Assembly (NCBI GenBank): GCA_963710455.1
Contig: CAVQAG010000005.1
Location: 24,020-88,019 of the forward strand
Source: an uncultured delta proteobacterium
Lineage (GTDB): Bacteria; Desulfobacterota; Binatia; Binatales; Binataceae
Direction of reading: 5' to 3'
Length of the DNA stretch: 64,000 nucleotides
Shown: positions 825-3,557 of the stretch, piece by piece
How the letters are laid out: each line of letters begins with the position of its first letter
Numbering within the stretch: the first letter of the stretch is position 1
Program-made: the position numbers and the translations under genes
Notes under the pieces: model-generated
Told to the model about the DNA's origin: nothing
The model's database searches: none
Seen by the model: the letters and a program-made list of their open reading frames with translations, nothing else

Positions 825-3557
825 ATGGCAGACAAAGCCTTTCTAATTCGAGCGCTTCGACTCATAGAAATAGACGACAATACAAACGTACCGACCGTAC
901 TATACTACCCCTCAGGGTCGCAGGTGCTCATCGGCTCTGCTGCTCTCGCCGCAGCAGACGCGCATGATTTATTGAATGAAGATTTCAAGGTAGATCTCGG
1001 CAACATCAATCCCACTTCACGAACTGTTCGAGAGAAATTTCCCACGGCGTCAGGTATACCGAAGTCTGCAGCAGGGCTCACGTCGGATTTCTTTAACCAA
1101 GTACTCAAAGCAGTAGATCGCTGGCTTCAATTACAAGGTGTCGAAGACAACGTAGCACTCTTGCTTGCCGAACCACTATCGATGGGCGGAGAGCTCGCCT
1201 CGGAAGAGTGGCTCTCGAACTATCGGAGGAACATCGACCGTATCTTGACAGGCAGACCCGGAATAGCAGCGGTTGACTTTCTGCCAGAGCCATTTGCCGT
1301 GTTCCAGTACTACCGACACGGACGTCGACACCCGCTTCTTACAGATCAAACAAAATATAACGCCCTGGTGATGGACTTCGGCGGCGGCACGTTCGATGTG
1401 TGTATCGTCGAGACGACAAAGGAAGGTGACATCAGTAGGACACTCCGAAACTCTAAACCGCTCGCTGCGTCTTCTGAACCCATTGGCGGCTTTTATATAA
1501 ATCGTGCTCTGAGCGAAGACTTATTCAGGAGACACCTGTCGGCCTACCCAGGAAAACGGGACAGCAAGCTCGAAACGGCTATAGATATGTACAAGAAGTG
1601 GCGTCGGGATCCCGATTTCCAGCTTGGTTCCATGAGTAACGACTATCGTAATTTTGTAAAGCAATTCAATCGCGTCGTGCATGAAGTAGAACATCTAAAG
1701 CTCGCTTTGTGCTCGCAGGTTGTGGATTGGCAGATAGACGCGCCTCTGACCTTTGGCGGATCGCTCGCCCTACCCAAGAATCCCTACGCTGCGGAGACTG
1801 ATGTTATCAATGTTAAAGTAACTGCGGCGGAATTCCGTCAATTATTCGAGGAAAGAATTTGGAACAGCCATCTCAGACCCGTAATTCGAAGAGCACTCAC
1901 TCGCGGACGTCAGGAAGTAGGAGTAGCCCCACTGTCAGTCGTTCTTCTGTCAGGAGGTTCCGCGAATATAGGATGGCTTCGGACCCTCTTTCAACGGGAC
2001 TTTGCAGATGATTTGCGCGGGGCTCCAATCTTGTTGGAGCCAGATTACCAAGAGGTCGTTGCCAAAGGACTAGCGGTAGAGTGTGCTCGGCGCTTCTTTA
2101 GCGAAGGCGACTTTGCTGCAGTTACATATAATCGACTATGTTTGGTCCTTGAACCCGATAATCGTGGAAGAGAAATCAAGCCCTACACGCCACGGGAGTC
2201 GGGTCTGCCCGATGTCGGGCGAATGCCTGGGGTTCTGCTCCCTTCAGCAAGCGTGCTGAGAGCCTTTGTGGACCACCCGATGCGATGGCGCGTCAAGCTA
2301 GACCACGCTCCGAGGAGAAGGCTCGACTACCATTTTTTGCGGTCCAGTTTTGATCCTGATGACGTGCAGCAGTTACAGAATCCCGGACAGACGGTTGTTG
2401 CCACGCCAAGAGATGCGAAGTTCGGAACGGCACTGACTGTCGAGTTATCAGTACGTCAAGATGGAACAGCATCACCGCGCTTCATTTACAAGGAAGGAAG
2501 CGGGGGCAATGAGTCTTCGGCGGAAGGCAAACCGTTCTTTCTCGACATGACGTATGGAAGCAGCAAGACAGGACCGGGAGCCTATGTAGGCTTCGACTTT
2601 GGCACGAGTAATAGCGCACTGTGCTTTGTGGATTCACAGTCAATAGAAGTTTACAATCGAAGAGCCGCGGAGACTTCTTGGATTGAACTAAGCGATCTCG
2701 TAGGAGTTCTGCCTTACCCGCTTGCGGTCCCGCTGGAAAGTTACCTGAGTTGTGCGGATCCGGCGCGACTGGTGGACAAAGCGAGAGAATTTGCAGAAGC
2801 GGCGCTTGCGATGGGTGCGTACGTCGCGTTCTTAGAGCACTGCAGCAAGAAAGGCGCGCGGGAGTCGAGACTTTTCAAGGGATTTACTCAACGATCTGCA
2901 GGTCCTCTATGGGCTCTATTAAAGGAGGCCCTGCAACAGCTGGGGTCCAACGCAGTTTTAAGCGCACCGTTCCGCGAGTTGATGTCCGGGGAGCTTTACG
3001 AACTTATCAATGAGTTCGTCACATTTCTGACCCAGCAGAAGCATCAGAAGGCTTCTGAGGCGGATCGTGATCATCTGCCTCCGACGAGGGTCCTTGCCAA
3101 TGTCAGCCATACTGTATTCGCGAGAAACCGGTTCGGCTTTTTCGAGGACGTGCGAAAACGTCGCCTGGCAAGAGGGTACGAAGGTCGCTTCAGACATGCC
3201 TGTGGTCCTTCGCGATTTATAGACTTGTATCGTTATCAAGGAGAGGAAGCATTTTCTGAAGACCAGGCGTTTCTCGTAAACGCCGATGATTCAGTGGCGC
3301 TTCCTCTCGAACCGCTAGTATTATGGCATAGTTGCTCCAAACACCCGGATGCAGATATTGGCCACTGCTACCTCTTCGACACGATCAACAAAGGCATAAC
3401 GTCATACAAGGCAGTAGGGCATTCCTGCACCTTGCAGATTAGCTCGTCAGACAGTGACTTTAGAGAATTAAACGAGTATCTGAGTGCCTTCGCATCGACT
3501 GATCAGACGATAAACCCGGTGAGAATTAAGATACTTGAACCGTGGCAACGTGAGTGA
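825..3557 (+). CDS. Hsp70/actin-fold ATPase domain protein, 910 aa, with an uncharacterised C-terminal half
   Basis: Hsp70 NBD motifs appear in the canonical order:
- degenerate phosphate-1 EIDDNTN-VPTVLYY (aa 15-28)
- LLAEPLSMG
- DFLPEPFAVFQYY
- phosphate-2 MDFGGGTFDVCIVE (aa 183-196, nt 1371-1412)
- EPIGGFYINRAL
- adenosine motif VVLLSGGSANIGWL
- EPDYQEVVAKGLAVE

A second, canonical phosphate-1-like motif GFDFGTSNSALCFV lies at aa 589-602 (nt 2589-2630). No DnaK substrate-binding domain was recognised. Confidence 0.8.
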   Translation: MADKAFLIRALRLIEIDDNTNVPTVLYYPSGSQVLIGSAALAAADAHDLLNEDFKVDLGNINPTSRTVREKFPTASGIPKSAAGLTSDFFNQVLKAVDRWLQLQGVEDNVALLLAEPLSMGGELASEEWLSNYRRNIDRILTGRPGIAAVDFLPEPFAVFQYYRHGRRHPLLTDQTKYNALVMDFGGGTFDVCIVETTKEGDISRTLRNSKPLAASSEPIGGFYINRALSEDLFRRHLSAYPGKRDSKLETAIDMYKKWRRDPDFQLGSMSNDYRNFVKQFNRVVHEVEHLKLALCSQVVDWQIDAPLTFGGSLALPKNPYAAETDVINVKVTAAEFRQLFEERIWNSHLRPVIRRALTRGRQEVGVAPLSVVLLSGGSANIGWLRTLFQRDFADDLRGAPILLEPDYQEVVAKGLAVECARRFFSEGDFAAVTYNRLCLVLEPDNRGREIKPYTPRESGLPDVGRMPGVLLPSASVLRAFVDHPMRWRVKLDHAPRRRLDYHFLRSSFDPDDVQQLQNPGQTVVATPRDAKFGTALTVELSVRQDGTASPRFIYKEGSGGNESSAEGKPFFLDMTYGSSKTGPGAYVGFDFGTSNSALCFVDSQSIEVYNRRAAETSWIELSDLVGVLPYPLAVPLESYLSCADPARLVDKAREFAEAALAMGAYVAFLEHCSKKGARESRLFKGFTQRSAGPLWALLKEALQQLGSNAVLSAPFRELMSGELYELINEFVTFLTQQKHQKASEADRDHLPPTRVLANVSHTVFARNRFGFFEDVRKRRLARGYEGRFRHACGPSRFIDLYRYQGEEAFSEDQAFLVNADDSVALPLEPLVLWHSCSKHPDADIGHCYLFDTINKGITSYKAVGHSCTLQISSSDSDFRELNEYLSAFASTDQTINPVRIKILEPWQRE

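What the first reader, a model, noticed from the sequence alone, without database searches (positions are those of the whole stretch)
825..3557. Unusual motif architecture: degenerate N-terminal phosphate-1 motif plus an orphan canonical phosphate-1 motif 570 residues downstream
The N-terminal strand that should read D-x-G-T-[ST]-N reads E-I-D-D-N-T-N (aa 15-21). The rest of the NBD is present in order up to about aa 425: DFGGGTFD at aa 184-191, SGGSANIGW, and EPDYQEVVAKG.

A near-perfect phosphate-1 motif, GFDFGTSNSALCFV, then appears at aa 589-602. It is not followed by a second phosphate-2 or adenosine motif. The last 300 aa or so have no motif I recognise.

Possible explanations are a truncated second actin-fold domain, a strand-swap or permutation, or a decoy strand. 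I have not seen this arrangement described.
Basis: seen in the sequence. Interest (0 to 1): 0.7.

Follow-up and report, generated by a model that had tools for sequence, protein, structure and literature searches.

The report
Hsp70 ATPase with relocated phosphate-binding hairpin
This 910-residue protein belongs to a widespread, undescribed group of Hsp70-like proteins whose first two strands, which carry the phosphate-1 ATP-binding loop, are missing from the N-terminus and sit about 570 residues downstream, between the substrate-binding-like domain and a variable C-terminal module.

Summary
One assignment is wrong. "EIDDNTN" (aa 15-21) is not a decayed phosphate-1 loop. It aligns to DnaK residues about 29-35, the beta3 / "GDRTTPS" segment. 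The protein starts at beta3 and has no N-terminal beta1-beta2 hairpin, and an in-frame stop two codons upstream rules out a hidden extension.

The canonical phosphate-1 hairpin at aa 586-603 is the most conserved element of the family. G589, D591 and G593 are invariant in 230/230 relatives. It is equally conserved in a sister family of about 1040-aa Hsp70-Fic fusions. The other ATPase residues are also kept: K55 = DnaK K70, E155 = E171, phosphate-2 and adenosine.

Moving the hairpin in silico to the N-terminus restores a collinear alignment to DnaK and to Pfam HSP70. In AlphaFold models the hairpin is confident only when the N-terminal part is present. The C-terminal 300 aa form a confident helical-plus-beta module with no Pfam, PDB or viral-structure match.

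Best reading: a permuted (non-contiguous) Hsp70 ATPase-plus-SBD-beta switch driving a variable output domain. It is a stand-alone gene, often in defence or mobile regions. I could not inspect model coordinates, so docking of the hairpin into the ATPase lobe is inferred.

The parts
825..3557 (+). Complete ORF, 910 aa plus stop. Stand-alone Hsp70-like gene.
   Evidence: An in-frame TAG lies two codons upstream of the ATG, so no N-terminal extension is possible. More than 529 homologues of about 910 aa share the same ends.
852..2105 (+). Body of the Hsp70-type nucleotide-binding domain (aa 10-427). It begins at the equivalent of strand beta3 and lacks beta1-beta2.
   Evidence: Foldseek matches the full model to Hsp70 structures at E about 5e-16. 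Pfam HSP70 scores 20.7 bits against a cut-off of 20.6.
855..908 (+). aa 11-28, LRLIEIDDNTNVPTVLYY. This is beta3 plus the 'G-x-x-x-x-P-T' segment, homologous to DnaK 'AEGDRTTPSIIAY' (about 29-42).
   Evidence: The family profile aligns positions 16-46 to DnaK 30-60 and 17-45 to HSPA8 33-60. P23, T24 and Y28 are at least 90% conserved. The 'DGSxN' part is not conserved in the Fic-type sister family.
975..1001 (+). aa 51-59, NEDFKVDLG. K55 is the equivalent of the catalytic lysine (DnaK K70) and G59 of G74.
   Evidence: hmmalign of DnaK to the family profile. F54, K55 and G59 are invariant. K55 is present in 228/230 sequences.
1278..1298 (+). aa 152-158, FLPEPFA. E155 is the equivalent of DnaK E171 (IINEPTA).
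   Evidence: E155-P156 are present in 230/230 sequences.
1374..1397 (+). Phosphate-2 motif DFGGGTFD (aa 184-191). D184, T189 and D191 correspond to DnaK D194, T199 and D201.
   Evidence: D184 and G186-188 are present in 230/230 sequences.
1950..2069 (+). Adenosine-binding region: SGGSANIGW (aa 376-384) through EPDYQEVVAKG (aa 405-415).
   Evidence: Aligned to DnaK 'VGGQTRMP...NPDEAVAIGAA'. G377, G378 and G415 are invariant.
2121..2549 (+). Interdomain linker plus a beta-rich domain (aa 433-575) resembling the Hsp70 substrate-binding domain beta.
   Evidence: The best Foldseek hits are NBD+SBD-beta structures (5e-16), better than NBD alone (2e-12). hhalign gives a collinear but non-significant alignment that pairs 'VELSVRQDGTA' with DnaK 'VTFDIDADGIL'. 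The model has eight strands here.
2580..2633 (+). Relocated beta1-beta2 hairpin carrying the canonical phosphate-1 loop (aa 586-603, AYVGFDFGTSNSALCFVD).
   Evidence: Conservation is shown. It aligns to DnaK 5-20 in the re-permuted profile. Its pLDDT is 74-90 in the full-length model and 50-66 in the C-terminal-only model.
2634..3125 (+). C-terminal helical domain (aa 604-767). Conserved residues include E658, the R690-S-A-G-P-L-W696 motif and K739-H740-x-K742.
   Evidence: pLDDT is above 90 when modelled on its own. There is no Pfam, PDB or BFVD match.
3126..3542 (+). C-terminal beta-rich domain (aa 768-906).
   Evidence: Only weak, non-significant Foldseek similarity to small beta-barrels such as uL2 and KOW.
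3333..3428 (+). Cys/His cluster C837-x2-H840-x6-H847-C848...C868, a possible metal site.
   Evidence: Invariant or at least 90% conserved in the core family, but absent in divergent members. Metal binding is inferred, not tested.

Best explanation
The gene encodes a permuted (non-contiguous) Hsp70.

Domain order:
- The ATPase domain starts at strand beta3 and runs to its normal C-terminal helix.
- The chain continues through the interdomain linker and an SBD-beta-like sandwich.
- It then returns to supply the missing beta1-beta2 hairpin, with the canonical phosphate-1 loop G-x-D-F-G-T-S-N (aa 586-603), to ATPase lobe IA.
- It ends in a 300-aa helical-plus-beta module of unknown fold.

Shown here:
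- The absence of N-terminal beta1-beta2.
- The identity and invariance of the downstream hairpin.
- Retention of all other catalytic residues.
- Collinearity after in-silico re-permutation.
- The same arrangement in a sister family whose C-terminal module is a Fic AMP-transferase.

Inferred:
- The hairpin inserts in cis into lobe IA and completes a working ATP site.
- Because the phosphate-sensing hairpin is tethered on one side to the SBD-like domain and on the other to the output module, client binding and the ATP/ADP state are mechanically coupled to the position or activity of the C-terminal domain. In effect this would be a chaperone-type ATP switch gating an effector or adaptor.
- The stand-alone gene, its patchy distribution across phyla, the low-GC island, the neighbours (restriction-modification, toxin-antitoxin, transposase) and the toxin-type Fic output of the sister family suggest a role in stress or conflict (defence) rather than housekeeping folding.
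For: (1) The N-terminus lacks phosphate-1. The native family profile aligns positions 16-46 to DnaK 30-60. The number of residues before the conserved Pro23 (= DnaK Pro37, which has 36 before it) has a median of 22 over all 230 sequences and is about 14 in the Fic-type. A stop lies two codons upstream of the ATG.

(2) The re-permuted profile (aa 584-606 + 4-432) aligns DnaK 5-60 in one stretch at 12.9 bits, against 2.6 bits for the native order. hmmalign puts K55 on K70, G59 on G74 and E155 on E171. The typed DnaK sequence was verified against PDB, 1-384 = 1-384.

(3) Pfam HSP70 score for homologue P0014 rises from 26.6 bits (native NBD) to 36.9 bits (re-permuted). A short re-permuted construct matches profile positions 2-53 across the junction. 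The window copy rises from 20.3 to 22.3 bits.

(4) Conservation: G589, D591 and G593 are 230/230. The phosphate-2 and adenosine glycines and E155 are 230/230.

(5) AlphaFold. The full-length model has pLDDT 85.2, with 74-90 at the hairpin. In the C-terminal-only model the hairpin falls to 50-66 while aa 620-906 stay above 90. The hairpin is therefore not part of the C-terminal fold.

(6) Control. Nine of ten canonical Hsp70-like ORFs have phosphate-1 165-210 aa upstream of phosphate-2. The tenth (L019) has GIDVGTTR at its N-terminus, which the search pattern missed. The permuted ones have it 380-410 aa downstream.

(7) Sister family of Hsp70-Fic fusions. All 86 full-length members have an intact Fic motif. 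None has an N-terminal phosphate-1. 63/86 matched the strict search pattern at about 545-560, and all 68 in the pooled alignment keep G, D and G.

(8) Contexts. There is no conserved partner. Neighbours include Type I and Type IIG restriction-modification, SoFic, DpdJ-like, SLFN/AlbA_2, Mrr, toxin-antitoxin genes, transposases and an integrase. GC is about 52% in window 1-7000 and about 62% elsewhere.
Against: - I could not read model coordinates, so the hairpin-NBD contact is not directly observed.
- The pLDDT drop would also occur if the hairpin packed on the SBD-like domain.
- Coevolution analysis (mean-field DCA, 230 sequences) was uninformative, because the hairpin is nearly invariant and gaps dominate the signal.
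- Sequence similarity to Hsp70 is weak overall: Pfam 20.7 bits against a cut-off of 20.6.
- The window copy gains only 2 bits on re-permutation.
- SBD-beta homology is not significant by sequence.
- The defence role rests on qualitative context only. Several neighbourhoods are ordinary metabolic genes, no PADLOC model hits the protein, and no background rate was computed.
Confidence: 0.65

Rival explanations
1. Remnant of a tandem duplication. The hairpin is what survives of a second Hsp70 or actin-fold domain. It now belongs structurally to the C-terminal module or to the SBD-like sandwich, and the N-terminal NBD is a phosphate-1-less pseudo-ATPase.
For: Duplication followed by truncation is the classical route to permutation. 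The hairpin is followed by no other ASKHA motif. The loss of hairpin pLDDT in the C-terminal-only model is also compatible with packing on the SBD-like domain.
Against: All other catalytic residues of the N-terminal NBD are invariant in 230 sequences, which is unexpected for a dead ATPase. The hairpin keeps the exact phosphate-binding consensus, which has no known role outside an ASKHA active site. The hairpin is not confidently folded with the C-terminal module alone. The C-terminal module has no ASKHA or RNase H fold match. An NBD without beta1-beta2 would lack the central strands of the lobe IA sheet (established Hsp70 topology).
Confidence: 0.15
2. Domain-swapped oligomer. The hairpin completes the ATP site of a neighbouring subunit in trans, so that ATPase activity depends on dimerisation or filament formation.
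For: The hairpin is flanked by low-confidence linkers (pLDDT below 50 at 578-581 and 611-615). Many actin-fold proteins polymerise (general knowledge).
Against: No direct evidence. The apparent stand-alone hairpin-plus-C-terminus proteins are contig-edge fragments, not natural splits. The monomer model is already confident (pTM 0.69).
Confidence: 0.1
3. RuvC/RNase H-like nuclease motif. G-x-D-x-G-T-x-N resembles the first RuvC motif (as in Cas9 'GLDIGTNSVG', from memory), so the C-terminal third might be a nuclease effector.
For: ASKHA and RuvC share the RNase H-like fold, with an Asp at the end of strand 1. Conserved acidic residues E658, D852 and D893 and a Cys/His cluster lie downstream. 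The gene sits in defence-type contexts.
Against: Foldseek of the confident C-terminal model finds no RuvC, RNase H or any other fold (best E 0.06, TM at most 0.14). The region after the hairpin is an all-helical domain, not beta-alpha-beta. The same hairpin precedes a Fic domain in the sister family. The hairpin is not folded with the C-terminal module.
Confidence: 0.03

Closest known systems
Canonical Hsp70 / DnaK (Pfam PF00012; ASKHA superfamily)
   Same: - The NBD fold and the NBD-linker-SBD-beta order (Foldseek E about 5e-16).
- Phosphate-2, the adenosine motif, and the catalytic Lys and Glu equivalents.
- The phosphate-1 consensus itself.
   Different: - The beta1-beta2 phosphate-1 hairpin is absent from the N-terminus and encoded after the SBD-beta-like domain.
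- There is no SBD-alpha lid and no C-terminal tail. A 300-aa module of unknown fold takes their place.
- No DnaJ or GrpE genes lie nearby.
- Sequence similarity is only at Pfam-threshold level (20.7 bits).
Hsp70-Fic fusion proteins (about 1040 aa; databases name them 'Fic family protein / molecular chaperone DnaK'; found here)
   Same: The same permuted module: an N-terminus starting at beta3, the NBD, an SBD-like domain, then the G-x-D-F-G-T-S-N hairpin. Also stand-alone genes in restriction-modification, toxin-antitoxin and integrase neighbourhoods. Related to the window family at E about 1e-33.
   Different: The C-terminal output is a Fic domain with an intact HPFxD(G/A)NGR motif, instead of the helical-plus-beta module. 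The window protein has no Fic motif.
Hsp70-like NBD/SBD proteins of CoCoNuT Type IV restriction systems (CnuD/CnuCD, and McrB-fused Hsp70-like units; PMC11090510)
   Same: Divergent Hsp70-like NBD/SBD units followed by a helical (HEAT-like) region, found in defence loci. The paper reports degenerate 'Walker A-like' motifs.
   Different: Those units are fused to, or encoded beside, McrB/McrC homologues. No McrBC-type neighbour appears in any of the 11 contexts examined here. Whether CnuD shares the permutation was not tested, because no sequences were at hand.
FICD/HYPE-BiP (a Fic enzyme AMPylating an Hsp70; PDB 6zmd, 7b7z appear among the fold hits)
   Same: A functional pairing of a Fic domain with an Hsp70. 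This is relevant to the sister family.
   Different: There the two are separate proteins in the eukaryotic ER, and BiP is a canonical, non-permuted Hsp70.

Membership tests
Hsp70 (PF00012) / ASKHA ATPases | PHOSPHATE 1 loop (D-x-G-[TS]-x-[NS]) on the N-terminal beta1-beta2 hairpin of lobe I | tested here: not met
   There is no phosphate-1 in the first 40 aa of the Fic-type members (0 of 86) or of the 910-type members. aa 15-21 aligns to DnaK 29-35, not 6-13. The motif exists but is displaced to aa 589-596.
Hsp70 (PF00012) / ASKHA ATPases | PHOSPHATE 2 motif D-x-G-G-G-T-x-D | tested here: met
   DFGGGTFD at aa 184-191. It matches Pfam HSP70 profile positions 184-206. It is invariant.
Hsp70 (PF00012) / ASKHA ATPases | ADENOSINE motif (G-G in lobe IIA) and the following D-E-A-V-A-x-G-A helix | tested here: met
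   LLSGGSANIGW and QEVVAKGLA align to DnaK VGGQTRMP and DEAVAIGAA.
Hsp70 (PF00012) / ASKHA ATPases | Catalytic Lys (DnaK K70) and Glu (E171) | tested here: met
   By alignment only: K55 = K70 and E155 = E171. Both are essentially invariant. Activity was not tested.
Hsp70 (PF00012) / ASKHA ATPases | Pfam gathering score | tested here: inconclusive
   20.7 bits against a cut-off of 20.6, from a 23-residue stretch only. All NCBIfam DnaK/HscA models score far below their cut-offs.
Hsp70 chaperones (functional sense) | SBD-beta sandwich plus alpha-helical lid; co-chaperones DnaJ and GrpE | tested here: inconclusive
   An SBD-beta-like fold is suggested by Foldseek and by a collinear, non-significant hhalign. 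The region after the hairpin has no detectable similarity to any known structure, so no lid equivalent was detected. No J-domain or GrpE genes appear in the 11 neighbourhoods.
CoCoNuT CnuD-type Hsp70-like proteins | Fusion to, or operon with, McrB-like GTPase and McrC (DUF2357) homologues | tested here: not met
   None of the neighbourhoods contains McrB or McrC families. There is no PADLOC hit.
Fic (Fido) AMP-transferases | HPFx(D/E)GN(G/K)R motif | tested here: not met
   Absent from the window protein. There is no Pfam Fic hit. It is present only in the sister family.
RuvC/RNase H-like nucleases | RNase H-like beta-alpha-beta fold with a D-E-D(H) triad after the first-strand Asp | tested here: not met
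   The C-terminal model (pLDDT 89.6) has no such fold match. The hairpin is followed by an all-helical domain.

The most novel reading that the evidence does not exclude
A widespread natural class of 'rewired' Hsp70s. In these the phosphate-1 hairpin has been moved to lie between the client-binding domain and an exchangeable output domain (Fic toxin, or the unknown module seen here). The Hsp70 ATP/client cycle would then directly gate an effector, giving a single-polypeptide chaperone-type sensor-effector used in bacterial stress or anti-phage conflict.
Probability: 0.3. Interest if true: 0.85.

Novelty: new variant of a known kind. Interest (0 to 1): 0.68.

Why it matters
Hsp70 allostery depends on how nucleotide sensing in the NBD is transmitted to the substrate-binding domain. 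A natural family that covalently inserts the SBD between the phosphate-1 hairpin and the rest of the ATPase would be an unplanned "experiment" on that coupling. It would also be a rare natural permutation of an actin-fold ATPase.

The same module is fused to different outputs, a Fic AMP-transferase in one family and an unknown fold in this one. That suggests a reusable ATP/client-gated switch, possibly a new type of single-gene conflict system.

On the practical side, these proteins are annotated as "molecular chaperone", "Hsp70 family protein" or "hypothetical", and the permutation is invisible to linear domain models. Pfam sees only 23 residues. The C-terminal module is a confidently predicted fold with no known relative.

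Tried and rejected
- Internal duplication. hhalign of aa 579-910, 579-768 and 433-578 against the NBD gave probabilities below 2%.
- RuvC-like nuclease reading of the hairpin. Rejected by Foldseek and by the helical topology.
- Mis-called start hiding an N-terminal hairpin. Rejected, because a stop lies two codons upstream and the homologues have matching N-termini.
- Natural split genes (about 336-347 aa proteins starting at the hairpin). These begin at the conserved internal 'DMT' methionine. The one I looked up lies at the edge of a 1.4-kb contig, so it is a fragment.
- Coevolution (mean-field DCA on 230 module sequences) to place the hairpin. The top scores were gap artefacts, and the hairpin pairs ranked below 1290 with no enrichment for any segment. 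The first attempt timed out.
- Known defence families. No PADLOC hit for the protein.
- Conserved operon partner. None in 11 neighbourhoods.
- Sequence search of the C-terminal profile against PDB. Only chance-level hits to PARP14 and nanobodies, E above 0.3.
- Literature. No paper on a permuted Hsp70 or actin-fold NBD, or on Hsp70-Fic fusions, in the held library.
- The genome-contig scan was swamped by the generic DFGGGTFD pattern and returned only 13 loci. These still served as a canonical-Hsp70 control.
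Full report
**Observation**

Window 825..3557 (+) is a single 910-codon ORF. An in-frame TAG lies two codons upstream of the ATG, so nothing is hidden upstream. Pfam sees only a 23-residue HSP70 match around DFGGGTFD, at 20.7 bits against a cut-off of 20.6. NCBIfam chaperone models score far below their cut-offs. PADLOC gives nothing.

**The family**

More than 529 proteins in public data match at E ≤ 0.001, and the best 120 listed (41-85% identical) are mostly about 900-935 aa. 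They come from Acidobacteriota, Verrucomicrobiota, Thermodesulfobacteriota (Geomonas, Smithella) and Dechloromonas. Sources name them 'molecular chaperone', 'Hsp70 family protein' or 'hypothetical'.

In an alignment of 111 full-length members, the downstream phosphate-1 motif is among the best-conserved parts of the protein. G589, D591 and S595 are invariant, and F592, G593, T594, N596 and S600 are at least 90% conserved.

**What the N-terminus really is**

The family consensus 'KEFFINAVxLVDVDGSTNIPTVLYY..LIGSxA' matches Hsp70 'VEIIANDQGNRTTPSYVAF..RLIGDAA' and DnaK 'RVLENAEGDRTTPSIIAY..TLVGQPA'. This is strand beta3 and the start of subdomain IB, not the beta1-beta2 phosphate-1 hairpin.
- A profile of the native NBD aligns its positions 16-46 to DnaK 30-60 and 17-45 to HSPA8 33-60.
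- The number of residues before the conserved Pro23 (DnaK Pro37 has 36 before it) has a median of 22 over the 230 pooled sequences and is about 14 in the sister family. The chain is thus shorter than DnaK by about the length of the hairpin.
- 'EIDDNTN' is therefore not a decayed phosphate-1. The window copy's D18 and N19 are minority variants of a G-S that corresponds to the Hsp70 'G-N/D' before 'RTTPS'.

**Re-permutation test**

I placed aa 584-606 in front of aa 4-432.
- The resulting profile aligns DnaK 5-60 in one uninterrupted stretch at 12.9 bits, against 2.6 bits for the native order.
- hmmalign and MAFFT then give a collinear alignment through the whole NBD. K55 falls on K70, G59 on G74, E155 on E171, and D184/T189/D191 on D194/T199/D201. 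The adenosine motifs also align.
- With the independent Pfam HSP70 model, homologue P0014 rises from 26.6 to 36.9 bits. A short re-permuted construct matches profile positions 2-53 across the artificial junction, while the native N-terminus matches nothing. The more diverged window copy rises from 20.3 to 22.3 bits.
- As a control, nine of ten canonical Hsp70-like ORFs picked up by the same genome scan carry phosphate-1 165-210 residues upstream of phosphate-2. The tenth (L019) has GIDVGTTR at its N-terminus, which my search pattern missed. The permuted proteins carry it 380-410 residues downstream.

**Structure predictions**

The full-length AlphaFold model is confident, with pLDDT 85.2 and pTM 0.69.
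- Foldseek places it with full-length Hsp70s, and NBD+SBD-beta structures score best (5e-16, against 2e-12 for the NBD alone).
- The 433-575 region is a beta-rich domain. Its collinear but non-significant hhalign to the DnaK SBD pairs 'VELSVRQDGTA' with 'VTFDIDADGIL'.
- The hairpin forms strands 586-591 and 596-603 with pLDDT 74-90.
- When aa 579-910 is modelled alone (pLDDT 89.6), residues 620-906 stay above 90 but the hairpin region falls to 50-66 and its strands shorten. The hairpin is therefore not part of the C-terminal fold. Its order depends on the N-terminal 578 residues.
- I could not obtain coordinates. The specific contact with lobe IA is inferred from homology and from the need to fill the central strands of the lobe IA sheet. 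The alternative that it packs on the SBD-like sandwich is not excluded by pLDDT alone.
- A coevolution analysis was uninformative.

**The C-terminal module**

It consists of a helical domain (aa 604-767) and a beta-rich domain (aa 768-906).
- It has no similarity to the NBD.
- It has no Pfam family in any of 36 members.
- It has no PDB sequence match.
- It has no PDB or BFVD fold match (best E 0.06, TM at most 0.14).

A profile search of 1.84 billion representatives finds it in only 266 proteins. Among the best 150 listed, all are either about 900-aa proteins of this architecture or fragments of them. The core family has a conserved C-x2-H-x6-H-C...C cluster, which divergent members lack. 'Truncated second actin-fold domain' and my own RuvC-nuclease idea are thus not supported as descriptions of the present fold.

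**A sister family with a different output**

Locus L009 and at least 100 further clusters encode about 1040-aa proteins with the same module. They have an N-terminus at beta3, no N-terminal phosphate-1 (0 of 86), and G-x-D-F-G-T-S-N at about 545-560. They are followed by a Fic domain with an intact HPFxD(G/A)NGR motif in 86 of 86.

Over 230 sequences of both families, the hairpin G, D and G, the phosphate-2 and adenosine glycines and E155 are invariant. K55 is present in 228/230. The roughly 600-aa permuted Hsp70 module is therefore the conserved unit and the C-terminus is exchangeable.

**Context**

In 11 neighbourhoods no gene is consistently adjacent, and there is no DnaJ, GrpE or McrBC. 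Neighbours include:
- Type I and Type IIG restriction-modification genes;
- SoFic, a DpdJ-like helicase, SLFN/AlbA_2 and Mrr;
- CopG, ParE and PIN toxin-antitoxin genes;
- transposases and an integrase.

Some loci are ordinary. In the window the gene sits in a stretch of about 7 kb at about 52% GC, against about 62% elsewhere. This points to an accessory, horizontally moving gene. A defence or conflict role is suggested but not shown.

**Mechanism proposed**

The NBD body and the relocated hairpin together form an ATP site. The rest of the site is conserved as in active Hsp70s. The phosphate-sensing hairpin is tethered to the SBD-like domain on one side and to the output module on the other. 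Client occupancy and nucleotide state would therefore be coupled directly to the output domain, which is a Fic toxin in the sister family and an unknown helical-plus-beta module, possibly metal-binding, here.
- Shown: topology by homology, conservation, and modularity.
- Inferred: cis docking, ATPase activity, gating, and biological role.

**Comparison and novelty**

The protein works like an Hsp70 but fails one defining feature of the family as it is normally laid out, the N-terminal phosphate-1. It also lacks the lid and the co-chaperone context. The closest defence-related relatives in the literature are the Hsp70-like NBD/SBD units of CoCoNuT systems (PMC11090510), which are tied to McrBC. 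I did not test whether they share the permutation. I found no paper describing a permuted Hsp70 or actin-fold ATPase or Hsp70-Fic fusions. I rate it a new variant of a known kind, with interest 0.68. Confidence in the permutation itself is about 0.75, and in the gated-effector or conflict role about 0.3.

Noticed in passing
window 834-854 (aa 4-10): The N-terminal leader 'KEFFINA' is well conserved in the family: I8 in 97/111, N9 in 74/111, F7 in 72/111. AlphaFold nevertheless predicts it disordered, with pLDDT below 50 for aa 1-9. A conserved hydrophobic peptide next to an SBD-like domain could be a pseudo-substrate or a docking strand. This is pure speculation.
   Followed up: partly
L009 7989-11114 (+), and proteins P0269-P0376: A large sister family of about 1040-aa Hsp70-Fic fusion proteins has the same relocated phosphate-1 hairpin and an intact Fic motif. 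One copy sits directly beside a Type I restriction-modification operon and an integrase (L023). Another lies near a PIN/Phd toxin-antitoxin pair and Macro and SLFN/AlbA_2 genes (L024).
   Followed up: partly
window 4167-5510 (-); called as 323 aa at 4167-5138 in L001: The convergent downstream ORF has no Pfam or PADLOC match. It carries an R-x4-H string (NVRSTLVHGR) near its C-terminus, reminiscent of HEPN RNase motifs. I saw this by eye and did not test it.
   Followed up: partly
window 7130-7915 and 7597-8088 (-): A sigma-54-dependent transcriptional activator (Sigma54_activat AAA+, AAA_lid_14, HTH_8) is split over two overlapping ORFs in different frames. This is probably a frameshifted pseudogene or a sequencing error.
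   Followed up: no
window 1-7000: GC content is about 50-55% here, against about 60-65% from 8.5 kb onward. The low-GC stretch holds the Hsp70-like gene, several unannotated ORFs and a small HTH_17-like ORF at 6754-6996 (-), which scores 20.3 bits, below the cut-off. It looks like a horizontally acquired island.
   Followed up: partly
window 3333-3428 (aa 837-868): A Cys/His cluster C-x2-H-x6-H-C...C is conserved in the core 910-aa family but missing in divergent members such as P0139, P0147, P0225 and P0229. It may be a clade-specific metal site in the C-terminal beta domain.
   Followed up: partly
L024 7086-7619 (-); L021 12590-13186 (-): Dual-specificity / tyrosine phosphatase-like genes (DSPc, PTP families) lie next to or near the permuted Hsp70 gene in two of eleven neighbourhoods, one Fic-type and one 910-type. 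This may be coincidence.
   Followed up: no
L010 6171-7772 (-) and 9730-11232 (+): In a Chloroflexia MAG, a canonical (non-permuted) Hsp70-like gene is flanked by two ORFs that look like dynamin-type GTPases (G-x4-GKS motifs seen by eye). It is unrelated to the finding and was used only as a control locus.
   Followed up: no
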